64,000 nt of DNA from the NCBI GenBank assembly GCA_964613055.1, contig CAZTGD010000006.1, forward strand, positions 5,340 to 69,339. Reading direction: 5' to 3'. This stretch comes from an uncultured Caldisericales bacterium. Lineage in GTDB: Bacteria > Caldisericota > Caldisericia > JAAYUI01. The notes beneath the pieces are model-generated. The model searched no databases. It had not been told where the DNA came from and was given only the letters and a program-made list of their open reading frames with translations. A program made the translations under genes and the position numbers. Of the stretch, positions 1,171 to 41,094 are shown piece by piece. The stretch's first letter is position 1. Each line of letters begins with the position of its first letter.

Positions 1171-2474
1171 TGGAAGAGAAATTTGACCTGATCATCGTTG
1201 GATCTGGACCAGCAGGCATCAGTTCAGCAATCGTTGCGGCAATGGGTGGTTTGAAGGTAATCGTGATTGAGCGAGGTGAGTTCCCCGGCTCAAAGAGTGT
1301 TTTTGGAGGCGTAGTCTACGCATCCGAGATTGCAAAACTCGTACCCGAATTCTGGAACGAGAAGAGGATACCCATTGAACGCAGGATTACCGACTCCAGA
1401 CTCGTATACATGAATGACAACGGCGCGCTCCAGGTTGGCTATAAAACGGGCAAGTTCGCAGAGGATCCACCTAATGTGCTTTCCGTACACCGTGCTAAGT
1501 TTGACCGCTGGTTTGCCAAGAAAGCGCAAGAAGCAGGAGCACTTATCATATGCAACACGTGTGTTGAAGAGGTGCTTCGGGATAACACCGGCAGAGTTAC
1601 CGGCGTGAGGACCGGAAGACCCGACGGAGATGTGTTTGGAAAGATGGTCATCTTCGCAGATGGTATCCAGTCACCTCTCACTGTTAGAGCCGGCATACGC
1701 CCCGAGGTAAAGCCAGAGAATGTAGCACTTTCTGTTAAAGAGAACATCCAAATCGGCGAAGAGGAAGTCAACAAGCGATTTTCAGTCAAGCCGGGCGAGG
1801 GTGTGACCTTTGAAATGCTTGGTTCGATGGCAGACGGCATGGACGGCGTTGCCATAATGTACACCAACAAGGACACGGTTTCACTTGGAGTTGGTGCAAA
1901 CCTGAAACAATGGATGGTGAACAGGAACACACCGTATGAATTGATTGACAGACTCAAGGAACACCCATTTGTCAAGCCGTTTGTTGAGGGTGGCACCCTG
2001 AAGGAATACACAGCACACTGGCTACCTGAGGGTGGTTGGGACACCATACCAAAGCTCTATGGTGATGGCTATCTGTTGACCGGTGACACGGCGATGCTGT
2101 TCAACACACTTCACAGAGAGGGTACAAACCTCGCTCAGGCAACGGGTCGCATGGCAGGTGAGATGGCTTTGGAAGCCATTAGCAAAGGAGACACGAGCGA
2201 AAAAGCCCTAAAGGTGTACAACACACGCGTCATGAAGAGTTTTGTCGGCAAGGATATGAAAAAATACAAGGGCTTTGGTCACTTCCTCTTCAAGAACAAA
2301 GACCTCTTCAGCACACTCCCCGAGTTTGTCGGCGAGACATGTGAGGAGATGCTCAGGGTAGATGGAGCTTCAAAGAGGGAGAAACAAGCCAGAATCAAGA
2401 AGAACTTTGGCAAGAAGATAGGGCTGATGAAACTTCTAAAAATCGGTTGGAAAGGATGGAGGATTGTAAGATGA
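1170..2474 (+). CDS. fixC: FAD-dependent ETF-quinone oxidoreductase-like protein (FixC family)
   Basis: 434 aa. N-terminal FAD-binding motif DLIIVGSGPAGISSA. Overlaps the etfA stop (ATGA). Followed by a FixX-like ferredoxin. Confidence 0.85.
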   Translation: MEEKFDLIIVGSGPAGISSAIVAAMGGLKVIVIERGEFPGSKSVFGGVVYASEIAKLVPEFWNEKRIPIERRITDSRLVYMNDNGALQVGYKTGKFAEDPPNVLSVHRAKFDRWFAKKAQEAGALIICNTCVEEVLRDNTGRVTGVRTGRPDGDVFGKMVIFADGIQSPLTVRAGIRPEVKPENVALSVKENIQIGEEEVNKRFSVKPGEGVTFEMLGSMADGMDGVAIMYTNKDTVSLGVGANLKQWMVNRNTPYELIDRLKEHPFVKPFVEGGTLKEYTAHWLPEGGWDTIPKLYGDGYLLTGDTAMLFNTLHREGTNLAQATGRMAGEMALEAISKGDTSEKALKVYNTRVMKSFVGKDMKKYKGFGHFLFKNKDLFSTLPEFVGETCEEMLRVDGASKREKQARIKKNFGKKIGLMKLLKIGWKGWRIVR

Positions 2475-2755
2475 GTAAGATAGAAGACAAGCTGTACACA
2501 ACTCGATTCAAGGTCGACGAAACCCCTCATCTGAAGATTGCCGATCAGTCAATCTGCTTGAAATGCCTTAAGGAACACGGACAACCCTGCACCATCTTCT
2601 GCCCGGCAAAGGTCTACATCTGGGAAGAGGATCACATAAATGTCGTGTATGAGGGTTGCCTGGAATGTGGTAGCTGTCGCATCGGATGTCCCTACACCAA
2701 CATCACCTGGAACTTCCCCAGGGGTGGATTTGGGGTGATGTTCAAGCTGGGATAA
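2471..2755 (+). CDS. fixX: Ferredoxin-like protein FixX
   Basis: Cys pattern C..C..C...CP is FixX-like. The ATG overlaps the fixC stop (ATGA) at 2471; the ORF track start at 2447 is probably an over-extension. Confidence 0.8.
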   Translation: MSKIEDKLYTTRFKVDETPHLKIADQSICLKCLKEHGQPCTIFCPAKVYIWEEDHINVVYEGCLECGSCRIGCPYTNITWNFPRGGFGVMFKLG

Positions 2756-2808
2756 TAAAAAATGGCTGACAGTCGATAAACTGATGTCAACCAAAGAAGT
2801 AGGTTAAT

Positions 2809-3801
2809 ATGTCATTTGCTGATTGGATCCAAATTGGAGTTTCAGTTTTACTGGCTTTTATTGGTATTGGATTTTCAATATACTCAATTACAAGGAATAA
2901 AGCTGAGTCAAAATTGATAAAATCCTACAATGATAGCTTTGATAAGAAGATTGATGGATTAGACAAGACACTTACCAAAGTTTATATAAGCCATTTAGAA
3001 GGCAAGAATATAAAGAAGCAACCTGATACTCTGGACGATCCCCAAAAAGACGATGCGTATAGCATTATTTGTAAATTGAATGACAGACAAAAAAGGTTTC
3101 TTTCTGCTATCGATCTTTTTCCAAAACAATATGGTATCTCAAAAATTGCTGGTCATGATGGGTATGATGAGAAATTCAAAGTCAATGATATCGATCTTAA
3201 TAGAGCACAATTTATCAAAGGCGATAAAAAGATAAAAAGTACTATCACTACACTCAAAACAATCGATTTAATTGGAGAAGGTTATGATGAAAAATTACCT
3301 AACTGCAATCACTTTTTCGTACTAAAGAAGACTGGGGAGGAAGTTCTATCCATACTGCGAGGAAATAAAGGTGACCCATTAATTAATTTAATAAATGACA
3401 TCAATGAAGATGTTTCTAAATATAACGATAATTTGTATAGAATTCTAGAAGATCTGCATAACCTAAAATCAGAAAGCTATTATCTTCAAGACTGTACAGC
3501 AGGAAATCACAAATTTTACAGATGTGATAAGGTAATTGCAGATCCAAAGAATTTGAAATCTCTTATAGAAAACGAAAATATAACTGAATTGGATAAGGAT
3601 GAAAGGTTTGAATATCTCGGTGAGTGTCTATCTCGCGAATTAAGGCAAGCAAGACAAAACTCTCTTTTATCAGACGGAAAAGAAATTACTAAATCTCTCT
3701 ACTTTGTCAGTAATTCAGCCTGTGGCTCACAGTACCTTTGGGTAAAGAATAATCAGGATAAGGTACGCGAAATACTGAATAAACAACCATCACAAGTATA
3801 A
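2809..3801 (+). CDS. Hypothetical membrane-anchored protein (single N-terminal TM helix) inside an AT-rich island
   Basis: 330-aa ORF with a hydrophobic N-terminus (WIQIGVSVLLAFIGIGFSIYSI). Local GC is clearly lower than in flanking genes. No recognisable family. Confidence 0.5.
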   Translation: MSFADWIQIGVSVLLAFIGIGFSIYSITRNKAESKLIKSYNDSFDKKIDGLDKTLTKVYISHLEGKNIKKQPDTLDDPQKDDAYSIICKLNDRQKRFLSAIDLFPKQYGISKIAGHDGYDEKFKVNDIDLNRAQFIKGDKKIKSTITTLKTIDLIGEGYDEKLPNCNHFFVLKKTGEEVLSILRGNKGDPLINLINDINEDVSKYNDNLYRILEDLHNLKSESYYLQDCTAGNHKFYRCDKVIADPKNLKSLIENENITELDKDERFEYLGECLSRELRQARQNSLLSDGKEITKSLYFVSNSACGSQYLWVKNNQDKVREILNKQPSQV

Positions 3802-3815
3802 CTCCTAACATAGCT

Positions 3816-4142
3816 GTGCTACTCACTATGATATTAATTCAAGTTGCCTTCAGGTCAAGAATATCTATGTCTTTACCTGTTGACTTTCTTTTTTCACTGA
3901 TTACAATTTATTACATGGAATGGTTTGTTAACAACTTGGGATCAGTAGCTCTTATCGTAATAATCGTTGGTGTTGTGCTTGCCTTACTACTGTATCGTTC
4001 TTCATTGAGATCGCTGGGTTTTGGCAGGAACGTATCTGAGAAGTCTGGTGATGCTCCAAAGGATCATAAGGAAGGAGATAAAAAACTCAAAAACAAATTG
4101 AAGAACATGGCAGAAGAAACTAAATGGGACTGTTACTACTGA
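3816..4142 (+). CDS. Small hypothetical membrane protein. The true start is possibly the internal Met near 3915 (MEWFVNNLGSVALIVIIVGVVLALLLY...).
   Basis: ORF with one clear TM helix followed by a charged Lys/Glu-rich tail. AT-rich context. Confidence 0.35.
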   Translation: MLLTMILIQVAFRSRISMSLPVDFLFSLITIYYMEWFVNNLGSVALIVIIVGVVLALLLYRSSLRSLGFGRNVSEKSGDAPKDHKEGDKKLKNKLKNMAEETKWDCYY

Positions 4143-4294
4143 TCTACTAACCTTATTTTAATCCAACCGCAATTACCGTTAGGTTCAACTGTTAGTTTCA
4201 CAATTTTGTAATAATATCAATAATATTCAATATAATTTAAACTTGACTGTGTGTAATATTTATGTTAATATTTTAAATACTTAAGGAGGTGTGT

Positions 4295-4423
4295 ATGATT
4301 GAGAGAGTTGTCGAATCTGATTTTGTTGGTAAGGGTCCGGTTAATGAGATGTTGAGACTAATTGATGACGATGGTAACTGGCAAAATGGTGAGTTGAAAG
4401 TCAGAATGAGAGTAGTTAATTAA
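4295..4423 (+). CDS. Small ORF (42 aa) with a near-perfect Shine-Dalgarno site
   Basis: TAAGGAGGTGTGT precedes the ATG at 4295. Peptide MIERVVESDFVGKGPVNEMLRLIDDDGNWQNGELKVRMRVVN. Below the 60-aa cutoff of the ORF track. Confidence 0.3.
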   Translation: MIERVVESDFVGKGPVNEMLRLIDDDGNWQNGELKVRMRVVN

Positions 4424-4623
4424 GATGCAGGTTTTGATGATAAAATGAATAAGCAATTCAGTGTTTCTATAAGACAATCAGTTCATCCTAGCATTATAAC
4501 AGATAACCCCATACTAGAAGATGTAGAAAAAAAACGATGATAACGTATACACTTGGACATATTATATTAGAGCAAAGAAGTACTAGATACATAGTGCTCT
4601 ATTCATTTATAAAAACGGCGAAA

Positions 4624-5505
4624 TCAATGTAAGAATAATTGTACTCTCGACCAAACACTCTTGATATTAGCAGACACCTCACCATCCTGCTCAACTATTA
4701 TCTTTCCCTCTGATAGAATCCTTGGCACCGATTCATCATATCGAATGCGACCGACAGACATCACACCATTCTCTTTTGCAACCCGGTCAATCTCAGCCGA
4801 CACTTCTGGATTTATGTCCCACTTGTTGATACACATGGCTACCTTCATTTTGAAGCTGTCTGCTAGCTGGATGACACGTTCCATGTCATGCTTACCCGAC
4901 TGGGTGGGTTCTGTTACCAAGAGAAGCAGGTCAGCCCCGCTTATAGAAGCAATTACAGGACATCCAACGCCAGGGGGTCCATCTACAATCAGGACATCAG
5001 AATTATCATCCCTGGCTTTGACCCTCGCCTTTGACTTGACCAGTGAAACGAGTTTCCCTGAGTTCTCGCCTCCCGCATCCAGCAGGGCGTGGATCATTGG
5101 ACAATATTTCGTATCCGATTCCATCCACACACCCCTCTTCGGGGTGGACAGCTTGATAGCGTTAGCTTTACAAACATAGTCACATAGCGAACAGCCTTCG
5201 CATTTTAGTTCATCAATCCTGTAGATAGTTTTACCACTTTTATCAGTCGATTTGTCAATAGCATCGAATCGACAGTGTTCATAGCAGAGACCACAAAAGG
5301 TGCATTTGTTCTGATCTATTTCTGCCAGCAGACCGCTGTGAAAATCGTGGGTCCGAGTTTTTTCAGGCTTCATCAGGATGTGCATGTTCGGTGCGTCAAC
5401 ATCACAATCCGATATCACAGAGTTTTTTGCTAAGCTAGCAAACGATGCTGATACAGTGGTTTTGCCACTGCCCCCCTTACCACTAATTATTACAAGCTCT
5501 TTCAT
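4624..5505 (-). CDS. MinD/ParA-family P-loop ATPase with an inserted 2x[4Fe-4S] ferredoxin domain
   Basis: Deviant Walker A GKGGSGKTT. Two CxxCxxCxxxC clusters (CTFCGLCYEHC and CEGCSLCDYVC). 4-bp overlap with the upstream paralogue. Confidence 0.8.
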   Translation of the reverse strand: MKELVIISGKGGSGKTTVSASFASLAKNSVISDCDVDAPNMHILMKPEKTRTHDFHSGLLAEIDQNKCTFCGLCYEHCRFDAIDKSTDKSGKTIYRIDELKCEGCSLCDYVCKANAIKLSTPKRGVWMESDTKYCPMIHALLDAGGENSGKLVSLVKSKARVKARDDNSDVLIVDGPPGVGCPVIASISGADLLLLVTEPTQSGKHDMERVIQLADSFKMKVAMCINKWDINPEVSAEIDRVAKENGVMSVGRIRYDESVPRILSEGKIIVEQDGEVSANIKSVWSRVQLFLH

Positions 5506-6332
5506 GCGATACCCTCAATCCTGTTCATCAACTGCCTGAAAAGATCAGCGTATTCTGGGATTGACTGAACGACTGTGTCTCCCATAGAATAAGCCTTGGC
5601 AATCCTCATGTCATTTGGAATTCGAGCGAGTATCGGAATCCCCTTTGCATCACAGAACTTTTCAACCCCATCATCACCAATATCACTACGGTTTATCATA
5701 ACGCCAAAACGTAATGCTCTTCTCTCCAGCAAAGCCACTGATAGTTTCAGGTCATGCAGTCCAAAGGGTGTAGGCTCTGTGACCAACACCACATAGTCAA
5801 CTCCGTCAACAGCCTCTATTGCCGGACATGTGTTGCCGGGTGGTGCGTCTATGATGTTCAATCCATTCACTGAAATGTGTTTTTTGACAGACGATATGAG
5901 TTGGGGAGACATCACATTGCCTATCTTGAGCTGACCCTGAACCAGGGTTGTCTCGCCATTTCTAAATATACTTATCTCTCCTAGTTTCTTGGGGTTGGTA
6001 GTGATCGCGTCATGAGGACAGACAATCCAACCACCACAGCTGTGGCACATTTCATCATATACAATAACCTTTTTTGGGAGAGTGATAATTGCATTATACT
6101 TACAGAAATCACTGCACACGCCACATTTTGTGCAAAGTTGGTCGTTTACTGAAGGGGTCTCTATTGACACATCGGTTTGGTCAATCAAATCACCACCGAT
6201 GAAGAATGCATCGTTGGGCTCCTCGACATCACAGTCGAGAAGGGTAACAGGGGTCTTGGCAATTCTGGCAAGATTACATGCAACAGTGGTCTTACCCGTA
6301 CCGCCTTTTCCAGAAGCTATTGCAATCAACAT
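5502..6332 (-). CDS. MinD/ParA-family P-loop ATPase with an inserted [4Fe-4S] ferredoxin domain (paralogue)
   Basis: GKGGTGKTT Walker A. Cys clusters CTKCGVCSDFC / CHSCGGWIVC. Confidence 0.8.
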   Translation of the reverse strand: MLIAIASGKGGTGKTTVACNLARIAKTPVTLLDCDVEEPNDAFFIGGDLIDQTDVSIETPSVNDQLCTKCGVCSDFCKYNAIITLPKKVIVYDEMCHSCGGWIVCPHDAITTNPKKLGEISIFRNGETTLVQGQLKIGNVMSPQLISSVKKHISVNGLNIIDAPPGNTCPAIEAVDGVDYVVLVTEPTPFGLHDLKLSVALLERRALRFGVMINRSDIGDDGVEKFCDAKGIPILARIPNDMRIAKAYSMGDTVVQSIPEYADLFRQLMNRIEGIA

Positions 6333-6366
6333 ATTAGTGATATGAATATCCTTAAGATGCTTATAC

Positions 6367-6684
6367 TTAATTCAGATTATGCTTTTCAATGGCTTTAGAG
6401 ATAGTGGATTCATCGGTCACGATTATCTTAAGGCCTGCTGACTCCAGCACATCCTGTGCCTTTGGCCCGCAGTTCATACACACCATCACATCAATGCCAG
6501 CTTTTGAAACAGTTTCAGCTGATTTAATACCAACTCCATGAGCCGCACTAAGATTGGCGGTATTGTCGATGATCTTGATCTCTTTGGTTTCAGTATCAAA
6601 AATAAGGAAACTCTTTGCTCTGCCAAACACATCCTCGATGGCTGAGTTCAGATTGTCGCCTGCAGTGGGGAATGCTATCTTCAT
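6367..6684 (-). CDS. NifX/NifB-like dinitrogenase FeMo-cofactor-binding-domain protein
   Basis: 105 aa. MKIAFPTAGDNL...KIIVTD resembles the Nitro_FeMo-Co domain family. It commonly sits beside Fe-S MinD-like ATPases. Confidence 0.7.
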   Translation of the reverse strand: MKIAFPTAGDNLNSAIEDVFGRAKSFLIFDTETKEIKIIDNTANLSAAHGVGIKSAETVSKAGIDVMVCMNCGPKAQDVLESAGLKIIVTDESTISKAIEKHNLN

Positions 6685-6756
6685 ATTTCACCTTCCATGA
6701 TCGATTTTGGTGCACCGACATCAAGTCAGTGCACAGCGCTAGATTATACAGCGATT

Positions 6757-6984
6757 CTATTCGTTGTCGTTTTTCTTATCGGTGGTAGTCTGTTGTGAGC
6801 CCCAGCCAAAGAAGCCACGCCCAAATCCACGTCCTCTACCGAATCCCCGGCCCAGACCTCTTCCCGATCCTCGACCGAAACCATAGGGACGGTCTATAGG
6901 TTTTCCACCATTGCTACACGGTCCAAGCCTTCTACCTGTTCCTGCGCCCCTTCCGTCTGGTCCTTTTCCATCAAAACCTGGCAT
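6757..6984 (-). CDS. Small Gly/Arg-rich protein with RGG/FGRG repeats
   Basis: 75 aa, ...GFGRGSGRGLGRGFGRGRGFGRGFFGWG.... Strong SD (AGGAGGTGAG) immediately upstream on the minus strand. First gene of the operon. Confidence 0.5.
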   Translation of the reverse strand: MPGFDGKGPDGRGAGTGRRLGPCSNGGKPIDRPYGFGRGSGRGLGRGFGRGRGFGRGFFGWGSQQTTTDKKNDNE

Positions 6985-8470: not shown

Positions 8471-9730
8471 ATGAAATCAACCTTTTTTATCCACACACTT
8501 GGCTGTCAGATGAACAAGGCTGACTCCGAGTTTTATGCGTCAGTATTGAAGAGTATCGGATATGAGGCATCCGATGAGCAATCAGCAGATATCATGATGG
8601 TGAACACTTGTGCTGTTCGACAGGCATCCGTTCACAAGATGGAGTCACTCATTGGTAAGTGGGTTGCCATGAGAAATAAAACAGGCAAACCAAGAAGGAT
8701 AGGTGTCATAGGTTGTGTGCCAGCCATCGATATTCAGTCATTCAAATCCAACCATCAGCAGGTAGATTTTGTCATCGGTACCTACCCCAACAAGGATCAG
8801 ATGATAGAAGCAATGAAGGATACATTTGAGTTTGCGAGTAGTATAAATCTTAAAACAGAATCTCAAGTTTCTGCATACGTTCCGATAACCTCTGGTTGTA
8901 ACTGTTTCTGCACATATTGCATTGTCCCCTATACGAGAGGGCTCCTCAAATCTAGAAATGAGGATGAAGTTCTTGATGAGGTAAAAAACAGAATATCGAA
9001 CGGAGCAGTTGAGATTGTGCTTCTCGGTCAGAATGTCAATGAGTTTGGACTGGATAAAGGCGATAAGCACGGTTTCATAAAGTTGCTTGAGCGTATCGAC
9101 AGTATAAAAGGTTTGATGAGACTAAGATTCATAACCAGCCATCCAAAAGATATGGATGACCATACTATCGAAAGGATGTCAAAACTTGATAGACTCGCGC
9201 CTTACTTCCACCTTCCAGTTCAATCCGGTTCAGATGATATACTCAGACGGATGGCTAGGGGATATTCAAAAGATCAATACCTTCATCTCGTCAAAAAGAT
9301 AAGAGAAGAGTTTCCAGTGTGTGCAATTACAACGGATACAATCGTTGGATTCCCTGGCGAGACCGAAGGGCAGTTTCAAGAAACGTTAGATTTGATGGAT
9401 AATGTGCAATTCGATCAGGTTTTCTGTGCCATGTACTCTCCAAGACCAAAAACAGCCGCCCAGAAAATGACTGGAAGATGCACCAGTGAAGAACTCCACA
9501 GGCGAATAAACCTTCTACTGGAGAAACAGAAGGTCATCGGCAAACGAATTACAAACAACTACCTGAACACTCATACAAAGGTTCTCACTCTCAGCTACAC
9601 TGACAATAATACAACAGGCATCAATGAAAGAGGAAGGTTTGTAGAGATAGATGGAAGACACCCAATCGGCAATATTGTTAATGTTTTCATCAAATCCGTT
9701 GACGGAAGGCTGAAGGGGATAATCGTCTGA
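8471..9730 (+). CDS. MiaB/RimO-family radical-SAM methylthiotransferase. Size and context suggest an MtaB-like tRNA ms2t6A enzyme.
   Basis: N-terminal MTTase domain (FIHTLGCQMNKADSE). Radical-SAM CxxxCxxC (CNCFCTYCIVP). C-terminal TRAM-like segment. 419 aa. Confidence 0.8.
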   Translation: MKSTFFIHTLGCQMNKADSEFYASVLKSIGYEASDEQSADIMMVNTCAVRQASVHKMESLIGKWVAMRNKTGKPRRIGVIGCVPAIDIQSFKSNHQQVDFVIGTYPNKDQMIEAMKDTFEFASSINLKTESQVSAYVPITSGCNCFCTYCIVPYTRGLLKSRNEDEVLDEVKNRISNGAVEIVLLGQNVNEFGLDKGDKHGFIKLLERIDSIKGLMRLRFITSHPKDMDDHTIERMSKLDRLAPYFHLPVQSGSDDILRRMARGYSKDQYLHLVKKIREEFPVCAITTDTIVGFPGETEGQFQETLDLMDNVQFDQVFCAMYSPRPKTAAQKMTGRCTSEELHRRINLLLEKQKVIGKRITNNYLNTHTKVLTLSYTDNNTTGINERGRFVEIDGRHPIGNIVNVFIKSVDGRLKGIIV

Positions 9731-15531: not shown

Positions 15532-16878
15532 CTAATCAACAGAGCCTGCCCATACGGCAACCAGCTCATCTTCTTGAAGTCTAAAACAGACAGACAGATT
15601 TGAATCACCTGGGAATCTCAACTCGAATCGATTACTGCCGGCTGGCAACCATGTTCCAATAATTGCTGTAAAATCTCCATTGGCAACTTCCGGGTTACTT
15701 GCAAACCCAAGTTCCCTTGTCCATGTGTACGTATTACATACTAAATCTCTGTACTCAAGATTTATCCCAAACACATCATCATATTGTACTACTGACAAAT
15801 TTTTCGGGAATACATCTATATTGTGTTGTGAGAGAATCTTGTTGTCTGAAAGGTCAATTACTACGAGCTTGTAACCAGTTGAAGAACATATAACCGTTGC
15901 AATCGTTTGTTCATCAATAAAGTCAATTGGACTCGCTTCACCATCAACGTGATTGAAAGCGCCCAAAGCCCACTTACCTTCCCATATTGGTTTTACAGAG
16001 TCACCGTCCAGCTCAACAACCTTTTGCCTACCTTCAGTTGTTATGTAATTCCAAATTGTGGTTTTGTCTGTTTTTCGACCATGAAAGGCTACATTTCCTT
16101 TGTATGTAGATACTACTTTATTATCGTTTATAAGCTGACAACTGCCTTCTTGAAAGGTGGTCAGTGAAATGTCATCATCAAACTCTCTAGCTCTTGGATA
16201 ACTCCAGAAGGGTCTCGAATCCATCCATTCCACTTCTTCAAGTTTTAACATAGCGTCAGTTAATGAGCCAAGGGAACAGACACCATAATCCCCATTATCA
16301 GAGCATACTGCGAGTCCAACTATGTCTACAAAGTTTGTATTCTCGTTAAAGCCTGCCAAAGGCATTATCTTTGTCCAATCTCCCGTTATAGGAGTCTCTT
16401 CCAGGTCAAATGTATGTGTTTCACCAGTGACAATGGAGGAGATCAAGCAAGTTGCATCAGACGCTTCTGGAACTGTTCGGATTCGGAATCCTTCATTGGT
16501 GAGAATGGGCTTGTGTTCAGCATCCACCTCTCTCTCGGTATCAAGCTTAATCGTGTATCTGTTGTCATCGCCCTTCATAACATCGACGAATACTCTTTTT
16601 GGAAGATAACCCACATGCGATACTTCAACATCTATTACACCTGGTTCTACTATGAGCTCATTAATAGGTGCGATATGAGTTGAGTCTTTGATAGAGACAG
16701 TGGCATTGTCTGGAACTGTAAAGATGGTTAATGTAGTTTCAGACTCACACGCAACAAGTAGAACACAAGCCACCAACGAGAGTGCCAACCACCATCTCTT
16801 AAACAGCGTACCCTTTAGATAGTTAGATAATTTACCGGAAAATACAGAAAGATGTGACATCAATCCACCTTGAACCAC
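15532..16878 (-). CDS. Secreted lipoprotein with an N-terminal PEGA-like domain
   Basis: Lipobox LVAC. PEGA-like pattern (FTVPDNATVSIKD...VSHVGYLPKRVFV). The N-terminal extension before the signal peptide suggests a later start. Confidence 0.5.
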   Translation of the reverse strand: MVQGGLMSHLSVFSGKLSNYLKGTLFKRWWLALSLVACVLLVACESETTLTIFTVPDNATVSIKDSTHIAPINELIVEPGVIDVEVSHVGYLPKRVFVDVMKGDDNRYTIKLDTEREVDAEHKPILTNEGFRIRTVPEASDATCLISSIVTGETHTFDLEETPITGDWTKIMPLAGFNENTNFVDIVGLAVCSDNGDYGVCSLGSLTDAMLKLEEVEWMDSRPFWSYPRAREFDDDISLTTFQEGSCQLINDNKVVSTYKGNVAFHGRKTDKTTIWNYITTEGRQKVVELDGDSVKPIWEGKWALGAFNHVDGEASPIDFIDEQTIATVICSSTGYKLVVIDLSDNKILSQHNIDVFPKNLSVVQYDDVFGINLEYRDLVCNTYTWTRELGFASNPEVANGDFTAIIGTWLPAGSNRFELRFPGDSNLSVCFRLQEDELVAVWAGSVD

Positions 16879-18287
16879 TCGATGAATTTCTGATACTCCA
16901 TTTCGTATCTGCCATCTTCATTCATCAACTTTATATTGAAGAAGTTGGTTTCACCTATGTATATCGTGACTATCTGGTTTGTCTGCTCTTCGTTGATTTC
17001 AAACTGAACAGCATCCTTGTCACCAAGCTTAACATGCTTCATCTCTCCAACATTCATACCAGGATCTTCCTGATAGAAAGAGTACATGATTTCGTTATCT
17101 ATACCGGAATATGTTGAAGCATCCTGGACGTCTATAGAAATGAATGAACTGTTAGAATTACCTGGGGGAAGAACAAAGGATTGAAGGTTTGAGACTTCAT
17201 CAAACGACCACCCTGCAGGAAGTGTTGCAACATATGTATCGGTTACTGCCTTCTCACCCTTTGGAACGGACTGATTCCCGTTTGTTTTATCCGGGTTGGA
17301 GTCCTGGTTCGAATCGTTTGCATTATCTCGATCTTCTCTGGCAATCTGACCAGGGTCCTTGTCCATAAAATAGGTGAATGAATGGATTATCTCGTTCATT
17401 ACATCATCTTCAACGGAATTGTGTACTGACAATACGAGCACCTTGCCCTTGAGTGGCATGTAGTATGATGAGTATCCATCAGCATCATCAGATCTAATCG
17501 AGGTATGTGTAAACACCTTCATTTCAGCAGAGGCTTTGTATTCATCAGAGCAATTCTCATCAAGCCACGATACAATTGAAGAGGGGGCTGATGGATTGGC
17601 AGATGGATAAGGGTAATCGGTTACTGTAAGGGCTGGTACGCCATCAAAATCGATAAACTCGATCAAGTTGTCTGTCTTTTCTATCTCCCAATCACTGTTA
17701 TAGTTCATAAACCAAAACTCGTTATCAAATATATCAAACTGTTGATTGTCCTGCCGTTGGGCGACATCTTCATATTTCCATTCTGTGATGATTGGCTTGA
17801 ATGTTCCACATGAAGCTTTTGCCTCCGCAAATTCACGGGCTTTATATTTGCCTGGGGAAACCTGCATTACATATACTGCACCGGTGATCGGGACAAAAAC
17901 TATAAGCCCCTTGCCGTTGTCATTTCTCGTCTCTATCCATCTCGATGGAATCGTCTCTTCGGCTTCTTCAGCTTTCAAAGGCAGAGATTCAAGTTTATCT
18001 GATATTACACTTTGATCACCTGTCATCATTTCAACAAGGGAAGAGGAGATTGAATTAATATAACGGAAACTAGAGTTCTTGTCTTCAACAACCCCATACT
18101 GAAGCATCATTCCACTGCTAACAATCCTTACTGCAGATTCCTCCTTATCAAGATCCCATTCTGATGGGTAATCAAACGAAAACAGATCACCATTATAACT
18201 CTTTGAAAGATTGATTTCCTTCGATGTACAGGAGGAAATCAAAATCATCACTAGCATCACGGCAATGACCTTGAAAATGTTTCTCAT
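16860..18287 (-). CDS. Lipoprotein, three tandem modules of the local paralogous family
   Basis: Lipobox ISSC. Modules begin FSFDYPSEWDL / FWFMNYNSDWEI / ATLPAGWSFDEV. Family C-motif DVMNEIIHSFTYFMD. Confidence 0.55.
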   Translation of the reverse strand: MRNIFKVIAVMLVMILISSCTSKEINLSKSYNGDLFSFDYPSEWDLDKEESAVRIVSSGMMLQYGVVEDKNSSFRYINSISSSLVEMMTGDQSVISDKLESLPLKAEEAEETIPSRWIETRNDNGKGLIVFVPITGAVYVMQVSPGKYKAREFAEAKASCGTFKPIITEWKYEDVAQRQDNQQFDIFDNEFWFMNYNSDWEIEKTDNLIEFIDFDGVPALTVTDYPYPSANPSAPSSIVSWLDENCSDEYKASAEMKVFTHTSIRSDDADGYSSYYMPLKGKVLVLSVHNSVEDDVMNEIIHSFTYFMDKDPGQIAREDRDNANDSNQDSNPDKTNGNQSVPKGEKAVTDTYVATLPAGWSFDEVSNLQSFVLPPGNSNSSFISIDVQDASTYSGIDNEIMYSFYQEDPGMNVGEMKHVKLGDKDAVQFEINEEQTNQIVTIYIGETNFFNIKLMNEDGRYEMEYQKFIEWFKVD

Positions 18288-18329
18288 AATCTCTCTCCTT
18301 CGTTTATAATGTTAACAGGATTTAAATTT

Positions 18330-18833
18330 TTATTCAAGGTTGGGTTTTTCAATATATTTGACTGAAGAAAGAACAATCCTCGCTCCTTCACTGAGTTTGT
18401 TGTTAAAATTCCCATAGGTAAACACGTATGCATCATCATCAAATGTGATAATATAGGAATGTGTTATTATGTTTTGTGTTATTGTTATCTTAGCGTATTT
18501 ATTCTCACCGAATTGAACTTCTTCTGGTTGAGAGATATTATCCAATTCATCCTGTACTTTTTTAGCAAAGTCCATGGATGGTAATTGAATATCTTCGATG
18601 AGTTGAACATCGATCACAAACGTATCTCCTGAGGTTCTGTTCGATTCAAGCGTTAAGGACTCCCCTTCCCCACTACTTACAACCCAATCCGCAGGTCTGT
18701 TGAACACGATGTTTTCAAAGACCTGCTCGGCTGTTTCAATCTCGCTTGTAAAGAAGTTATTTTCGCCACCACATGAAATAAAACAGGATATAACTATTAA
18801 GAAGAAAATAAGAGCAGTCGAGACTCTTCTCAT
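18330..18833 (-). CDS. Lipoprotein, single-module member of the paralogous family
   Basis: Lipobox FISC. IVFNRPADWVV start motif. Confidence 0.55.
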   Translation of the reverse strand: MRRVSTALIFFLIVISCFISCGGENNFFTSEIETAEQVFENIVFNRPADWVVSSGEGESLTLESNRTSGDTFVIDVQLIEDIQLPSMDFAKKVQDELDNISQPEEVQFGENKYAKITITQNIITHSYIITFDDDAYVFTYGNFNNKLSEGARIVLSSVKYIEKPNLE

Positions 18834-19396
18834 CTAAGCACCTTTATTGAATCTAGTAGGGAATCTAGCTCTTGGGTATTCTCCGGTACACCAGTGACAC
18901 TAATTAAAACTATATTCCCGTCTTCAGTGTTTGTTACATATTGCCACAGTTGTGTTTGTGAGTCAGAACCAGAAATAGTTGCAATAAGCTCTTGAAACAC
19001 AACATTGCTTGGATTTGGATCACGTGTATTCAGTTGTTGTGGGTTTGATGCACCTCGAGCGGTAGTGTCAATATATTGCTTGGCATTCATTATACCGCCA
19101 GTGTCGATAAACTGTATTGTTACACCTGATATCCCACTATCTTCATTCATCAGAGACATTGAAATATTAGATTCGTTTCGATTAACAATCGACCAACCAT
19201 CTGGCATAACAAACTCAATGAAGGAATTACTGATCTTGTTTGCATCTTTATCATAGGAGTTTTGTCCCAATGAAATCGTTTTCTCATCAGTGACATCGAT
19301 ATCTGCTCTTTCAGTCTTCTCTGTTGTGCATGAGGTGATAAACACTGACAAAACGAGCATCAGGCAAACCATCAATGTTATTGGCTTGTTATTCAT
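18830..19396 (-). CDS. Lipoprotein, paralogous family
   Basis: Lipobox ITSC. FIEFVMPDGWSI start motif. C-terminal LDSLLDSIKVLR. Confidence 0.55.
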   Translation of the reverse strand: MNNKPITLMVCLMLVLSVFITSCTTEKTERADIDVTDEKTISLGQNSYDKDANKISNSFIEFVMPDGWSIVNRNESNISMSLMNEDSGISGVTIQFIDTGGIMNAKQYIDTTARGASNPQQLNTRDPNPSNVVFQELIATISGSDSQTQLWQYVTNTEDGNIVLISVTGVPENTQELDSLLDSIKVLR

Positions 19397-19403
19397 ATAT
19401 ACC

Positions 19404-20438
19404 TCACTTCATCTCGATAGTTTTTAATACATACATTGCATCATCGGGGATTCTATTCGACCAGCTAAAAACTGAAATCATTAAAGGTTCTAAGTCATCT
19501 CTTTCTGCAACCAGATGAAACTCAGAATAGCTATCGCTTTTAGATTCAATAAGACGGTACTTGATATTTCCAAGCTCCATTGAAGTAATTGAGCTGTTGA
19601 GTTGATCTGCTATGCCTTGAGCATATTCTTCAACCTTCATATCATCACCAAGGTTAACATACTGAATTGAAAGGGAGATCAGATCACTGTTCACGCCCTC
19701 TTTCGGTTCAAGAATCGTCAATCTGTCATCATCAGATGTCAGCTCAAGAAAGGGTGATATTTCAAAATCAATATATTTATTTGAGTAAAGCTCTGTTTTA
19801 TCGTCTTGATTCGAGTCTGTGAAATTTCCGTTGCTGTTATCTTGATCTTCTCCATTACTATTGTCGACATCCCCATCATTGCTATCCGATGTGTTATTGT
19901 CATCCTTATCGAAATAATCTGGGTCGGTCAGTCTGAAAGACTTCACAATGTCAACAGCTTTATCAAAGTCACCTTTAGTATTTGGAAGGGGATCTGTGAA
20001 AACAGTAATAATACGTTCTTCCACTGGAACGAATAATGCCACAGCCATTTTTTTATCAGTATTCCCGGTTATCAACACCCCTATGGTATCCTTTTCCTCT
20101 ATCGTTTCTCTTTCCATGTTTACAAGTTCGGACTCGACTGCACTGAGTGCTTCTTCAATTGTGTCAATATCTCCTATCAATGCTCCCTGATGATCTTTGA
20201 CCTCTACTATAACAGAGAAAGGATTTCCACTGATTTCCAAAACATCTTCCATCCATCTCCCCTGAAACCCTTCTGGGCAGTTGATGGCGTAGTAGGGTCC
20301 CAGAAGCACATTGCCGCTATCTTTCTCTACTGGACCTCCGCATGAAACGGTGGCAGGCATCATGAGGACAACAAACAAAATTACCAAGAAAATCCTGGAG
20401 AAAAGCATTTGCCGCATAATCATTTCCTTTCTTCTCAT
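19404..20438 (-). CDS. Lipoprotein, two modules joined by a D/N/S-rich low-complexity linker
   Basis: Lipobox VSCGG. FDKAVDIVKSFRLTDPDYFD C-motif. Acidic linker DSNDGDVDNSNGEDQDNSNG. Confidence 0.55.
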   Translation of the reverse strand: MRRKEMIMRQMLFSRIFLVILFVVLMMPATVSCGGPVEKDSGNVLLGPYYAINCPEGFQGRWMEDVLEISGNPFSVIVEVKDHQGALIGDIDTIEEALSAVESELVNMERETIEEKDTIGVLITGNTDKKMAVALFVPVEERIITVFTDPLPNTKGDFDKAVDIVKSFRLTDPDYFDKDDNNTSDSNDGDVDNSNGEDQDNSNGNFTDSNQDDKTELYSNKYIDFEISPFLELTSDDDRLTILEPKEGVNSDLISLSIQYVNLGDDMKVEEYAQGIADQLNSSITSMELGNIKYRLIESKSDSYSEFHLVAERDDLEPLMISVFSWSNRIPDDAMYVLKTIEMK

Positions 20439-31175: not shown

Positions 31176-32437
31176 GCGGTACGTTTCTCTCCCGGACCTA
31201 CAGAGACAATGTTGATGGGAACACCAACATAATCCTCAATGAACCCGATGTATTCCTTAGTCTTATCAGGTAGATCATCTATCTGTTGATAATCCGAAAG
31301 ATTCTTCATCCATCCTTCAAATCGTTTGTATATAGGTTCAACATGAGCGAGATATCCGCTGTCAGGATTGAAATGTCTGACCGTTTTACCGCTTATTTTG
31401 TATTCTGTACACACCTTTATCTCATCGAATGTGTCAAGCACATCAATGAGTGTCAATGCGAGATCAGTAGTTCCAGATATTCTCACAGCGTATCTCAGCG
31501 CAACAAGGTCTAACCAGCCACAATCTCGCGGTCGACCGGTGGTAGTGCCATACTCATTCCCCCGCTCCCTGATCATCTGTCCTACATCATCATCGAGTTT
31601 TGTTGGGAATGGACCCTTGCCAACGCGTGTCTGATACGCCTTCACGACACCAGTAATGCGCCTGAGATGTTTGGGGGAAAGACCAAAAGTGGACATACCC
31701 GATACGGGCAGACACGATGAGGAGGTAACATATGGGTATGTGCCATGTTCAAGATCGAGAAGGATGCCCTGGTTACCCTCAAGCAGAATGTCCTTTCCTT
31801 CGCTTAATGCATCATGGGCAATCCTTGATGTGTCAGCGAGCATAGATCCGATAGCAGATATGGCTCTTTCAACAGGCTCATACACCTCATCAAAAGTCAA
31901 CGGTTTTGAATCATACAGTCTTTTAAAAATTGTGTTCTTTTTTTCAAGGTTTCGAGCTAGTATCTTCCTCAATCTGCGCTCATCCCTGAGTAGTCCCATC
32001 CTTATGCCAATGCGGTTGATCTTATCGGCATAGCAGGGACCGATGCCCCTCATCGATGTACCAATCGAACCCTTTCCTCTGGATTTCTCATCCAGGTCCT
32101 CCTGATATCGATGGTACTTCAGAATCATATGTGCGCCTTCCGATATGAATAATCTGCCCTTATAATCAGTGACCATCGATATATCTTTCAACTCCCGCAT
32201 CAAACCACCAGGGTCAACCACCATTCCAGAACCCATGAGATTGATTGAATCATGCTTCATTATACCCGCAGGAACAACATGAAGCTTGATCGTTTTATTG
32301 CCAGTCACTATCGTGTGCCCAGAGTTTGGCCCACCTGCGAATCTGGCTACATAGTCTGTGGAATCTGCCAGCAGGTGAGTAATCTTGCCCTTAGCCTCAT
32401 CCCCCCACTGCAGACCACATACCATCATTACTGGCAT
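31160..32437 (-). CDS. purA: Adenylosuccinate synthetase
   Basis: MPVMMVCGLQWGDEAKGKI...GGPNSGHT. AGGAGG SD precedes the ATG at 32437; the ORF track start at 32488 is an over-extension. Confidence 0.9.
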   Translation of the reverse strand: MPVMMVCGLQWGDEAKGKITHLLADSTDYVARFAGGPNSGHTIVTGNKTIKLHVVPAGIMKHDSINLMGSGMVVDPGGLMRELKDISMVTDYKGRLFISEGAHMILKYHRYQEDLDEKSRGKGSIGTSMRGIGPCYADKINRIGIRMGLLRDERRLRKILARNLEKKNTIFKRLYDSKPLTFDEVYEPVERAISAIGSMLADTSRIAHDALSEGKDILLEGNQGILLDLEHGTYPYVTSSSCLPVSGMSTFGLSPKHLRRITGVVKAYQTRVGKGPFPTKLDDDVGQMIRERGNEYGTTTGRPRDCGWLDLVALRYAVRISGTTDLALTLIDVLDTFDEIKVCTEYKISGKTVRHFNPDSGYLAHVEPIYKRFEGWMKNLSDYQQIDDLPDKTKEYIGFIEDYVGVPINIVSVGPGEKRTAWRRP

Positions 32438-40387: not shown

Positions 40388-40846
40388 ATGAATAGGGTAA
40401 TTGTGTCAATCATACTAGTGACAATTCTTGCAACACTTTTCCTATCTGTATCATGTGGGTGTAATTTGAAAGATGATGATATCAATTCCGACTTAGAAGT
40501 ATTTGCTGAGAAAAGATTGAATCATTTATTAAAAGGTTTCCGTACCGCAGGTTGGAAACTGGGTGAAGATATTACAAAAGAGATAGCAATCGATGGTATG
40601 TGTAACATGATTAACAGTTTTTGTGATATCTTTGGATCGGATTCACATAAGAGTGGGTGTTACAAGCCAATATTTGATGACTGGATACAGTATAAATTAT
40701 ATGAAATCTATATATTAGATGATCGTAGTAGCAGTGATGACATAGGTTTGGAGAGGCTTAGAAGTAGACATCCTGAATTGTATGACAGCGATAGCTGTAA
40801 TGACTGGGAAAGGCTTTTAATACATGAAAGCAAGAAAAAATACTAA
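40388..40846 (+). CDS. Small Cys-rich lipoprotein (AT-rich region)
   Basis: Signal peptide + lipobox VSCGC. Six further Cys. GGAGG SD. Confidence 0.45.
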   Translation: MNRVIVSIILVTILATLFLSVSCGCNLKDDDINSDLEVFAEKRLNHLLKGFRTAGWKLGEDITKEIAIDGMCNMINSFCDIFGSDSHKSGCYKPIFDDWIQYKLYEIYILDDRSSSDDIGLERLRSRHPELYDSDSCNDWERLLIHESKKKY

Positions 40847-41094
40847 TATTTTCAGAGACATTATCCCAGTACCTTTGCCAATACCAGAACCATACCCACC
40901 AGCACAGATTCCACCATGGACGAGACAAGTAGTTACAAGCTAAATTCTGGACATATCAGGGTGGTTTTATTTGGTTGGGTTGTTGCATAGAATACATTTT
41001 AATATTGATAAGTATTTAATCTTATTCATAGAATTCTATTATGCTTGAGAAATCAAGCTGGGAGGATATAATCACCATATGGAGGTAGCAGAAA

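What the first reader, a model, noticed from the sequence alone, without database searches (positions are those of the whole stretch)
2756..4623. AT-rich island between convergent fixX and the Fe-S ATPase operon, carrying membrane proteins and an SD-led 42-aa ORF
GC here is clearly lower than in both flanks. The island sits where two convergent transcription units end. It encodes a 330-aa N-terminally anchored protein with no recognisable family, a small TM protein with a charged tail, and a 42-aa peptide (4295..4423) preceded by a near-perfect SD (TAAGGAGGTGTGT). A compositionally foreign block of a membrane protein plus small peptides is the kind of place where toxin/abortive-infection-like or precursor-peptide loci hide.
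Basis: partly seen in the sequence, partly recalled or inferred. Interest (0 to 1): 0.5.

Follow-up and report, generated by a model that had tools for sequence, protein, structure and literature searches.

The report
Variable gene slot after fixX
The AT-rich block is the cargo of a gene slot just after the fixABCX operon that holds different genes, often anti-phage ones, in related Caldisericia; here it carries a membrane-anchored protein of a four-member orphan family plus two small strain-specific genes, so it is a candidate, untested, new defence gene.

Summary
Window 2756-4623 has 33% GC, the lowest stretch of its size in the window (mean 42.4%). It lies between convergent fixX and a Fe-S ATPase operon.

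It carries a 330-aa N-terminally anchored ORF, a small single-pass membrane ORF and an SD-led 42-aa ORF. None matches Pfam, NCBIfam, PADLOC, PHROGs, PDB or Rfam.

Comparison with related Caldisericia contigs changes the reading. Homology between lineages stops at or just past the fixX stop codon, and what follows is AT-rich and differs by lineage:
- The 330-aa family follows fixX in three lineages, at 24-26% mutual identity, against 85% (L007) for FixC.
- A GmrSD restriction enzyme, a KAP/PifA-like NTPase and a DUF4917/PDC-S21 protein follow it in three others.
- An unrelated membrane ORF plus GIY-YIG follows it in one, and the slot is nearly empty in one.
- Two contigs with about 90% identical flanks carry GmrSD versus KAP/PifA, a clean cassette swap.

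The 330-aa gene is real. Its frame is open where the other two frames have 22 and 44 stops, and its membrane anchor and two motifs are conserved. It evolves under weak constraint (dN/dS 0.6).

The family has four members among 1.84 billion representative proteins. The 42-aa module is confined to one strain type.

Best reading: cargo of a defence-enriched slot, with ORF330 a candidate defence gene (inference only). There is no support for a precursor peptide or a toxin-antitoxin pair.

The parts
2471..2755 (+). fixX (ferredoxin-like last gene of etfBA-fixCX); left anchor of the variable slot
   Evidence: Pfam Fer4_ETF_QO, E 1.2e-11. In the lineages where the junction was mapped, DNA homology ends at or near the stop codon: L007, L008, L027, L029 and L034. 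L031 and L033 share 111 further bases. dS between two strains rises from 0.026 (etfA) to 0.60 in the last 47 codons, with dN 0 there.
2756..4623 (.). AT-rich variable cargo region (the finding)
   Evidence: GC 0.33, the minimum of the window. The equivalent region in relatives is also AT-rich but holds other genes.
2809..3801 (+). orf330: single N-terminal TM anchor with a predicted cytoplasmic domain of about 300 aa; orphan family of 4 members
   Evidence: The frame is open where the other two frames carry 22 and 44 stops. Homologues P0002 (L007) and P0004 (L027) lie right after fixX. A profile search of 1.84e9 representative proteins found only P0001, P0002 and P0004. The conserved motifs are LSAIDxF and W(V/I)(K/H)xN..(K/R).(K/R)xI. 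dN/dS is 0.60.
3130..3186 (+). hypervariable patch in orf330 (residues 108-126)
   Evidence: 10 of the 20 non-synonymous codon changes between the two strains lie here, all within residues 110-124. dS is 0.35 and dN 0.29 in the patch, against 0.033 and 0.015 elsewhere. It is not an inversion.
3851..3895 (+). terminator-like hairpin plus T-run after orf330; the 29-nt hairpin segment is inverted between strains
   Evidence: Segment 3851-3879 has 9 mismatches to L021 read directly but 2 to its reverse complement. The hairpin folds at -9.2 kcal/mol in both strains and is followed by TTGACTTTCTTTTTTC.
3880..3907 (+). promoter-like site for the small TM gene
   Evidence: TTGACT-16-TACAAT, 10 of 12 matches. 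It is kept in L021 as TTGACA-16-TACAAT. The -10 element ends 7 nt before ATG 3915, so the mRNA would be leaderless or nearly so (inference).
3915..4142 (+). TM75: 75-aa single-pass membrane protein with a Lys/Glu/Asp-rich tail (revised start)
   Evidence: Hydrophobic windows cover residues 1-34. The upstream extension has stop codons in L021, but this ORF is intact there at 91% identity. dN/dS is about 0.95 on 9 changes. No family match was found. It is absent from the L007 and L027 loci.
4147..4623 (.). strain-type-specific right-hand module
   Evidence: L021 is 95.8% identical up to 4146 and unalignable after it. Contig L003 from another sample ends exactly at 4146. No stable RNA fold was found (z +1.0 to +1.6) and no Rfam match.
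4243..4271 (+). promoter-like site for orf42
   Evidence: TTGACT-17-TAATAT with TG before the -10 element. Promoter-like matches are not significantly enriched in this AT-rich region (14 found, 9.0 +/- 2.9 expected).
4295..4423 (+). orf42: SD-led 42-aa soluble acidic product, no homologue
   Evidence: The AGGAGGT motif starts at 4284, with a 5-nt spacer to ATG. In the window, 6 of the 8 AGGAGGT + 5-6 nt + ATG sites precede long genes. Only itself was found among 5.8e9 proteins. There are no hydrophobic windows and the net charge is -2. The TAA stop is followed by 38 more open codons in frame.
4624..5505 (-). MinD/ParA-type ATPase with 4Fe-4S domain; last gene of the convergent operon; right border in this lineage only
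   Evidence: Pfam CbiA, Fer4 and ParA. This operon was not found in the roughly 6-10 kb held downstream of fixX in L007, nor in the 1.3 kb held in L008.

Best explanation
The island is the current cargo of a clade-specific variable slot that begins at or within about 110 nt after the stop codon of fixX in a group of Caldisericia.

Shown:
- Related lineages keep etfBA-fixCX but carry different AT-rich genes directly after it.
- Those genes include three recognised or candidate anti-phage genes.
- Two contigs with about 90% identical flanks have swapped cassettes.

In this genome the cargo has three independent pieces.
1. orf330 is a genuine but weakly constrained gene. It encodes a protein with one N-terminal membrane anchor. 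By the positive-inside rule, a domain of about 300 residues faces the cytoplasm. It belongs to an orphan family found only in this slot, and a terminator-like hairpin follows it.
2. TM75 is a 75-aa single-pass membrane protein with its own promoter-like site.
3. A strain-type-specific segment carries an SD-led 42-aa ORF.

Inferred, not shown: orf330 is an accessory gene under arms-race-like or relaxed selection, most likely a single-gene anti-phage (abortive-infection-type) factor. Its cytoplasmic domain would detect infection and act at or through the membrane. TM75 and orf42 are later, unrelated additions of doubtful or unknown function.
For: Slot variability.
- Homology of L007, L008, L027 and L029 to the window ends at or within a few bases of the fixX stop.
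- L008 and L027 are 92.7% identical up to the stop and unrelated after it.
- L031 and L033 share 91.5% and 87.9% identical flanks but hold 1457 nt against 1858 nt of different cargo.

Defence content of the slot.
- L033: GmrSD_N plus GmrSD_C (E 3e-37 and 6e-24; PADLOC Orf5/HEC-06, E 2e-88).
- L031: KAP_NTPase (E 5e-40; PADLOC PifA, E 1e-54).
- L029: DUF4917 (E 3e-10; PADLOC PDC-S21, E 3e-24).

Composition. The GC drop after fixX is -0.07 to -0.25 in this clade. In 41 other fixX loci it averages -0.037 +/- 0.041.

orf330 is real and belongs to the slot.
- Its frame is open where the other frames carry 22 and 44 stops.
- Three diverged members all lie directly after fixX, on the same strand, each with a single N-terminal TM segment and two shared motifs.

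Selection. dN/dS is 0.60, against 0.12-0.15 for etfA and fixC in the same strain pair, and there is a hypervariable patch.

Dispensability for Fix. The family is absent from L008, L029, L031-L034 and all 73 more distant fixX loci.

Precedent. Hotspots flanked by core genes with low-GC cargo, mostly of unknown function, have yielded new defence systems (PMC10250203, read).
Against: - No member of the family matches any PADLOC, Pfam, NCBIfam or PHROGs model, so the defence role rests on location alone.
- The census covers only 8 lineages.
- Not all cargo is defensive. The L007 region after the orf330 homologue encodes secreted or lipoprotein-like proteins, and other AT-rich stretches of the window encode lipoproteins.
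- The right flank is not conserved across lineages, so this is a one-sided slot at a synteny break rather than a textbook two-flank hotspot.
- The constant same-strand position after fixX also fits operon membership.
- dN/dS below 1 is not statistically established from 31 substitutions.
- AlphaFold models were unusable (pLDDT 33 and 39), so no fold supports any mechanism.
Confidence: 0.4

Rival explanations
1. orf330 is a lineage-specific, fast-evolving membrane protein with a non-defence role, for example in envelope or cell-surface physiology. The slot is simply a general variable region where poorly constrained, AT-rich accessory genes accumulate.
For: - Other AT-rich parts of the window (17.9-19.4 kb and 40.4-42.7 kb) encode lipoprotein or secreted proteins. 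One of them, p536, has a 29%-identical relative inside L007's AT-rich region after fixX.
- orf330 is present on all 14 same-species contigs read.
- Identity of 24-26% is what vertical descent at dN/dS of about 0.5 would give once synonymous sites are saturated. fixCX DNA is only about 75% identical.
Against: - Three of the five lineages that lack the family carry a recognised or candidate defence gene as the first gene after fixX. That is far above the share of such genes in genomes generally.
- By the positive-inside rule the large domain of orf330 is cytoplasmic, not surface-exposed (sequence).
Confidence: 0.3
2. orf330 is an accessory membrane subunit or tether of the FixABCX (EtfAB-FixCX) electron-transfer complex, co-transcribed as the fifth gene of the operon.
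For: - In all three lineages that have it, the gene follows fixX on the same strand within about 50-65 nt.
- In the window no strong terminator or promoter lies between fixX and orf330.
- The protein is membrane-anchored with a cytoplasmic domain, as a tether would be.
Against: - Close relatives with intact fixABCX lack it and carry defence genes or other ORFs instead. One example is L008, against its 92.7%-identical sister L027.
- No member was found in 73 more distant fixX loci.
- L007 and L027 have a GC-rich hairpin between fixX and the gene.
- Constraint is 4-5 times weaker than on FixC and EtfA.
- It has no redox-cofactor motifs and no invariant Cys or His.
Confidence: 0.13
3. One reading: TM75 is a small membrane toxin, and orf42 is an antitoxin or regulator, or a precursor peptide of a modified natural product.
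For: - TM75 is a small single-pass hydrophobic protein with its own promoter-like site that is conserved between strains.
- orf42 has a strong SD and a promoter-like site.
Against: - The two are not inherited together. L021 has TM75 but diverges completely 4 nt after the TM75 stop codon, before the orf42 segment begins.
- Neither has a homologue, and neither has a hit that passes a family threshold.
- orf42 has no Cys and no leader/core pattern.
- No modifying enzyme is adjacent. The nearest radical-SAM gene (8471-9730) has the UPF0004 plus Radical_SAM architecture of a tRNA methylthiotransferase, per the precomputed Pfam domains.
- TM75 dN/dS is about 0.95.
- Promoter-like hits are not enriched in this AT-rich DNA.
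Confidence: 0.07
4. TM75 and orf42 are not functional genes. They are chance or decaying ORFs in AT-rich spacer DNA, and orf42 may be the stump of a gene of about 80 codons cut by a nonsense mutation.
For: - TM75 dN/dS is about 0.95 on 9 changes.
- orf42 has no homologue among 5.8e9 proteins.
- Its TAA stop is followed by 38 more open codons in the same frame, up to 4541. My own rough estimate of the chance of that is about 0.04 at this composition.
- No conserved partner exists in the other lineages.
Against: - AGGAGGT at the ideal spacing from ATG is highly predictive of real starts in this window (6 of 8).
- TM75 stays open in L021 while the stretch just upstream acquired two stops, and its promoter-like site is kept.
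- This rival does not apply to orf330, which is clearly a real gene.
Confidence: 0.3

Closest known systems
Core-gene-flanked defence hotspots (cDHS1/cDHS2 of Pseudomonas aeruginosa, PMC10250203; E. coli defence-island hotspots, PMC10121019)
   Same: - A conserved core gene marks the border.
- Cargo differs between related genomes and has lower GC than the genome.
- Known defence genes alternate with genes of unknown function.
- Many occupied sites carry no mobility gene.
   Different: - Only the left flank (fixX) is conserved across lineages. The right flank is shared only within sublineages (L031/L033).
- The cargo is tiny (1.4-1.9 kb, often a single gene).
- The host is an uncultured Caldisericia clade.
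- The census covers 8 lineages, not hundreds of genomes.
Single-gene abortive-infection proteins with low GC, e.g. lactococcal Abi proteins and PifA of the F plasmid (own knowledge)
   Same: - Lower GC than the host.
- Single gene, sporadic distribution and rapid divergence.
- Membrane association in some cases.
- A PifA-like KAP NTPase occupies the same slot in L031.
   Different: - orf330 has no sequence similarity to any of them, and no NTPase, nuclease or other catalytic motif.
- No phenotype is known.
FixABCX / EtfAB-FixCX operons (Pfam ETF, ETF_alpha, ETF-QO_FixC_C, Fer4_ETF_QO)
   Same: orf330 is physically appended to such an operon on the same strand.
   Different: - It is not part of the conserved gene set. 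It is absent from most fixX loci examined and replaced in close relatives.
- It has no cofactor motifs.
Small membrane toxins of type I toxin-antitoxin systems and holin-like proteins (own knowledge)
   Same: TM75 is short, has one TM helix and a charged tail, and has its own promoter-like site.
   Different: - At 75 aa it is longer than most type I toxins.
- No antisense RNA or antitoxin has been identified.
- No family match passes a threshold. The best are SCIMP (E 0.02) and FliL (E 0.03), both far below their cut-offs.
- It is not conserved outside one species.

Membership tests
Core-gene-anchored defence hotspot | Cargo differs between related genomes at a fixed position next to a conserved core gene | tested here: met
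   Eight lineages carry six kinds of content right after fixX. In five of them, similarity to the comparison sequence ends at or within a few bases of the fixX stop. L031 and L033 show a swap between about 90% identical flanks.
Core-gene-anchored defence hotspot | Both flanks are conserved core genes | tested here: inconclusive
   The left flank is always fixX. The right flank differs by lineage: the ATPase operon here, ZnuA in L027, and a 181/198-aa ORF plus tRNA-Thr in L031/L033. It is conserved only within the L031/L033 pair.
Core-gene-anchored defence hotspot | Recognised defence systems among the cargo | tested here: met
   GmrSD is in L032/L033, a KAP/PifA-like protein in L031, and DUF4917/PDC-S21 (a candidate only) in L029.
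Core-gene-anchored defence hotspot | Cargo compositionally distinct from the genome | tested here: met
   GC falls by 0.07-0.25 after fixX in the clade, against -0.037 +/- 0.041 in 41 other fixX loci. orf330 has the lowest GC3 in the window.
Known anti-phage defence protein families (PADLOC-DB 2.0) | Significant match of the protein to a defence-system HMM | tested here: not met
   No hit at E <= 1 for orf330, the 108-aa ORF 3816-4142 that contains TM75, or orf42. No hit at E <= 0.01 for P0002 or P0004.
Known anti-phage defence protein families (PADLOC-DB 2.0) | Protection against phage when expressed | not testable with these tools
   Requires experiment.
FixABCX complex component | Co-occurrence with fixABCX across genomes | tested here: not met
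   A family HMM run on all ORFs of the fetched fixX loci found members only in the window-type contigs, L007 and L027.
RiPP precursor-peptide locus | Adjacent modifying enzyme, and a leader/core peptide with modifiable Cys/Ser/Thr-rich core | tested here: not met
   The neighbours of orf42 are TM75 and an Fe-S ATPase. orf42 has no Cys, only 1 Ser and no Thr (sequence). No homologue was found.
Toxin-antitoxin pair | Two adjacent genes inherited together, and a match to toxin or antitoxin families | tested here: not met
   L021 keeps TM75 but diverges completely 4 nt after the TM75 stop codon, before the orf42 segment begins. No family hits were found.
Integrative mobile element / IS | Integrase or transposase, terminal repeats, tRNA or att site | tested here: not met
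   No flanking repeats were found and no tRNA lies nearby. No mobility domain appears in any island ORF. In L031/L033 a tRNA-Thr lies about 0.7 kb beyond the cargo.
Structured non-coding RNA | Rfam match, or a fold more stable than shuffled sequence | tested here: not met
   No Rfam match at E <= 1 in 2700-4700. Fold z-scores are +0.96 to +1.56.

The most novel reading that the evidence does not exclude
The orf330 family (four known members, all encoded right after fixX in Caldisericia) is a new single-gene, membrane-anchored anti-phage system with a fold and mechanism unrelated to any catalogued defence protein. The fixX-adjacent slot is then a usable 'bait' for finding further defence genes in this uncultured phylum.
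Probability: 0.3. Interest if true: 0.6.

Novelty: new member of a known kind. Interest (0 to 1): 0.4.

Why it matters
Defence hotspots anchored on core genes have been mapped mainly in well-sampled Proteobacteria. Here the same kind of site appears in an uncultured, deep-branching phylum (Caldisericota), anchored on the end of an electron-transfer operon.

The slot gives a concrete, cheap handle for defence-gene discovery in that phylum: take whatever follows fixX. It also flags one orphan membrane-protein family for testing.

If the family does not act in defence, the locus is still a clean example of a gene evolving to saturation (24-26% identity) in place, next to neighbours that stay 85-94% identical.

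Tried and rejected
1. 'The island was transferred recently between strains.' This was first suggested by dS 0.047 in orf330 against 0.40 in the adjacent 79 codons of fixX. I rejected it after extending the comparison with L028. Background dS is 0.026 in etfA and 0.065 in fixC, so the island is ordinary. The anomaly is a local dS spike in the last about 50 codons of fixX.

2. Structure. AlphaFold2 on 3- and 4-sequence alignments gave pLDDT 33 and 39. Foldseek against PDB gave nothing below E 0.2, with TM-scores of about 0.1. I draw no conclusion from these.

3. A PDB profile search gave only Cullin-3 at E 0.17, which is noise.

4. The profile search hit P0005 (1903 aa, 17 stretches) is a repeat protein whose unit contains 'NNNPEKVKEIIEQ'. 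It matches only the C-terminal motif and I do not take it as a relative.

5. No relatives were found in viral contigs, phage genomes or plasmids for orf330 or in phage genomes for TM75. The only orf42 match in phage genomes was a chance one at E 0.9.

6. The L008 203-aa membrane ORF is not related to the orf330 family (hhalign probability 0.5%).

7. The hypervariable patch in orf330 is not a diversity-generating-retroelement pattern, because the changes are not confined to A. It is not an inversion either.

8. Six-frame reading of 4143-4623 shows no remnant of a longer gene, apart from the in-frame continuation of orf42.

9. No RNA family or stable structure was found.
Full report
OBSERVATION.

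The block 2756-4623 is real and stands out. Its GC is 0.330, against a window mean of 0.424 (sd 0.031 for stretches of the same length). The lowest such stretch of the whole 64 kb starts at 2801.

On the left lies etfA-fixC-fixX on the + strand, with fixX at 2471-2755 (Fer4_ETF_QO). On the right, on the - strand, lies an operon whose last gene ends at 4624. That operon encodes DUF5320, a NifX-like protein and two MinD/ParA-type ATPases with 4Fe-4S domains.

Inside the block are three ORFs:
- A 330-aa ORF (2809-3801) with a single N-terminal hydrophobic segment.
- A small membrane ORF.
- A 42-aa ORF (4295-4423), 5 nt after AAGGAGGT.

None matches Pfam, NCBIfam, PADLOC or PHROGs above noise. No Rfam family, tRNA, flanking repeat or mobility gene is present. 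orf330 has the lowest GC and GC3 of the 43 long ORFs of the window.

WHOSE GENOME.

Near-identical contigs (99.9-100% identical) come from a MAG (GCA_054921975.1) and from microbial-mat and other metagenomes. The nearest titled relatives, with FixC 85-86% identical, are a 'Caldisericia bacterium' chromosome (L007) and an uncultured-bacterium MAG (L008).

THE KEY COMPARATIVE RESULT.

I collected fixX loci from species-level genomes and from metagenomes. In every lineage of this clade where the junction was mapped, DNA similarity stops at or near the fixX stop codon (within 111 nt for the L031/L033 pair). This holds whether the comparison is to the window or between lineages. What follows is always AT-rich. 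GC drops by 0.07-0.25 there, against -0.037 +/- 0.041 in 41 fixX loci from other phyla.

What follows also differs by lineage:
- The window lineage, L007 and L027 carry a member of the orf330 family, on the same strand.
- L032/L033 carry a GmrSD type IV restriction enzyme (GmrSD_N E 3e-37, GmrSD_C E 6e-24).
- L031 carries a KAP-family NTPase that matches PADLOC PifA at E 1e-54.
- L029 carries a DUF4917 protein that matches the PADLOC candidate PDC-S21 at E 3e-24.
- L008 carries an unrelated 203-aa membrane ORF on the other strand, plus a GIY-YIG gene.
- L034 is almost empty.

Two pairs give clean evidence of cassette replacement.
- L031 and L033 are 91.5% identical up to 111 nt past fixX, and 87.9% identical from the next shared gene onward. 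In between they hold 1457 nt (KAP/PifA-like) against 1858 nt (GmrSD).
- L008 and L027 are 92.7% identical up to the fixX stop and unrelated after it.

The place is therefore a variable slot that is rich in defence genes. It is the same kind of feature as the core-gene-flanked defence hotspots described in Pseudomonas aeruginosa, where the cargo is also lower in GC than the genome and mostly of unknown function (PMC10250203). One difference is that only the left flank is conserved across all the lineages here.

THE 330-aa GENE.

It is a real gene. Its frame is open for 330 codons at 33% GC, while the other two frames carry 22 and 44 stops.

It has full-length relatives directly after fixX in L007 (P0002) and L027 (P0004). 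Each has a single N-terminal hydrophobic segment. Acidic residues precede the segment (clearest in the window protein and P0004) and basic residues follow it in all three. By the positive-inside rule the large domain is cytoplasmic. They share two motifs, (F/L)LSAID(L/I)F and W(V/I)(K/H)xN..(K/R).(K/R)xI near the C-terminus.

The family is tiny.
- A word-indexed search of 5.8 billion proteins found one 94%-identical variant, P0001.
- An exhaustive profile search of 1.84 billion representatives found only P0001, P0002 and P0004, plus a spurious repeat-protein hit.

The three lineage versions are 24-26% identical to one another. Against L007, FixC is 85% and FixX 94% identical.

Between two strains of the window species, dN/dS is 0.60. 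It is 0.46 outside a 19-residue hypervariable patch at residues 108-126. In the same strain pair, etfA gives 0.15 and fixC 0.12.

With fixCX DNA only about 75% identical between lineages, synonymous sites are saturated. Descent in place at this weak constraint could by itself give about 25% identity. I therefore cannot tell vertical descent from allele exchange.

The gene is present on all 14 same-species contigs read. It is absent from L008, L029 and L031-L034, and from 73 more distant fixX loci.

Structure prediction failed (pLDDT 33 and 39). Fold and PDB searches gave only noise.

THE REST OF THE BLOCK.

A 29-nt hairpin at 3851-3879 is followed by a T-run, so it looks like a terminator for orf330. 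The 29-nt hairpin segment is inverted between the two strains: 9 mismatches when read directly, 2 against the reverse complement.

Overlapping the T-run is a promoter-like TTGACT-16-TACAAT. It is kept in the other strain as TTGACA-16-TACAAT, and it ends 7 nt before ATG 3915. In the other strain the in-frame stretch upstream of 3915 has two stop codons, while the 75 codons from 3915 remain open. The small membrane protein is therefore most likely 75 aa (3915-4142), possibly made from a leaderless mRNA.

Its dN/dS is about 0.95 on only nine changes. It has no relatives outside this species. Its functionality is uncertain.

Similarity between the two strains ends abruptly at 4146/4147, four bases after the TM75 stop codon. 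A contig from another sample ends at exactly 4146. The right-hand 477 nt, which hold orf42, are therefore a separate strain-type-specific module.

orf42 has a strong SD at ideal spacing. In this window, 6 of the 8 AGGAGGT + 5-6 nt + ATG sites precede long genes. It also has a promoter-like site with an extended -10 element. Against this, it has no homologue at all. It is soluble and acidic, with no Cys. Its stop codon is followed by 38 further open codons in frame, so it could be the stump of a gene of about 80 codons. No stable RNA structure is predicted in the module.

A CORRECTION MADE ALONG THE WAY.

The first strain comparison suggested that the island was much less diverged at synonymous sites than fixX. 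Extending the comparison upstream showed the opposite picture. Background dS is 0.026-0.065 and the island is ordinary at 0.047. The last about 47 codons of fixX are the anomaly, with dS 0.60 and dN 0. A divergence spike in the core gene that borders the slot is what recombination with a divergent allele at the slot border would leave. That reading is an inference.

MECHANISM, WITH LEVELS OF SUPPORT.

Shown:
- The slot is variable and rich in defence genes.
- orf330 is a genuine, weakly constrained, membrane-anchored orphan gene specific to this slot.
- The block is composite.

Inferred (confidence about 0.4): orf330 is an accessory gene that most likely acts in phage defence. It would be anchored in the membrane, with a cytoplasmic domain that senses infection, in the manner of single-gene abortive-infection proteins.

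Rivals:
- A fast-evolving membrane protein with another accessory role (0.3).
- A Fix-associated tether (0.13). This is disfavoured because close relatives with intact fix operons have replaced the gene.
- For the small ORFs, a toxin-antitoxin or precursor-peptide role (0.07), or no function at all (0.3).

These figures are separate estimates for claims about different pieces of the block, so they are not meant to sum to 1.

VERDICT.

The finding is a new example, in a little-studied phylum, of a known kind of feature: a core-gene-anchored variable slot that is rich in defence genes. It carries an orphan gene family that is a reasonable but untested defence candidate. Interest is moderate.

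Noticed in passing
window 2612-2752 (last 47 codons of fixX): Between two strains of the same species, synonymous divergence spikes to dS 0.60 with dN 0. It is 0.026 in etfA, and it rises gradually through the second half of fixC (0.11). This looks like a recombination scar at the border of the variable slot.
   Followed up: partly
window 3851-3879: A 29-nt hairpin between orf330 and TM75 is present in opposite orientation in the two strains (a micro-inversion of the hairpin segment). It accounts for most of the 'mismatches' in this spacer.
   Followed up: yes
window 40388-42705 and 16860-20438: These are the other AT-rich stretches of the window. One holds a 152-aa and a 536-aa secreted or lipoprotein-like ORF (GC 0.34; GC3 0.28 for the 536-aa ORF, the second lowest in the window). 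The other holds a run of four lipoprotein-like ORFs. The 536-aa protein is 29% identical (E 7e-26) to a lipoprotein-like ORF inside L007's AT-rich region after fixX (L007:16094-17083).
   Followed up: partly
window 31720-31845: This is the only other AGGAGGT + 6 nt + ATG site in the window that does not precede a long gene. It leads a 37-aa ORF starting at 31732, so it is a possible small protein gene.
   Followed up: no
window 4424-4541: The TAA stop of orf42 is followed by 38 more sense codons in the same frame, including an internal ATG that opens a 31-aa ORF at 4446-4541. orf42 may be the remnant of a gene of about 80 codons, or be subject to read-through.
   Followed up: partly
L008:12289-12899 and L027:1640-1900: Palindromic GC-rich repeat elements (e.g. 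GGTACCCTGGATTCCTGGTCAAGCCAGGAATCCAGGGTACC) flank a GIY-YIG gene in L008. Related copies lie after the orf330 homologue in L027. They may be small mobile repeats associated with the slot.
   Followed up: no
L007:14403-15431: Two tandem paralogous ORFs of about 170 aa lie in L007's AT-rich region after fixX. Each has an N-terminal zinc-ribbon-like CxxC...CxxC motif and hydrophobic segments. Their function is unknown.
   Followed up: no
L031:7851-8447 / L033:8252-8797, with tRNA-Thr at L031:8514-8589: The right flank of the swapped GmrSD / KAP-PifA cassettes is a conserved 181/198-aa ORF of unknown function followed by tRNA-Thr(TGT). In that sublineage the slot therefore lies near a tRNA gene.
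   Followed up: partly
window 4624-6984 (- strand): A conserved four-gene operon encodes DUF5320, a NifX/Nitro_FeMo-Co-like protein and two MinD/ParA-type ATPases with 4Fe-4S ferredoxin inserts. It is of unknown role in a non-diazotroph. It was not found in the roughly 6-10 kb held downstream of fixX in L007.
   Followed up: no
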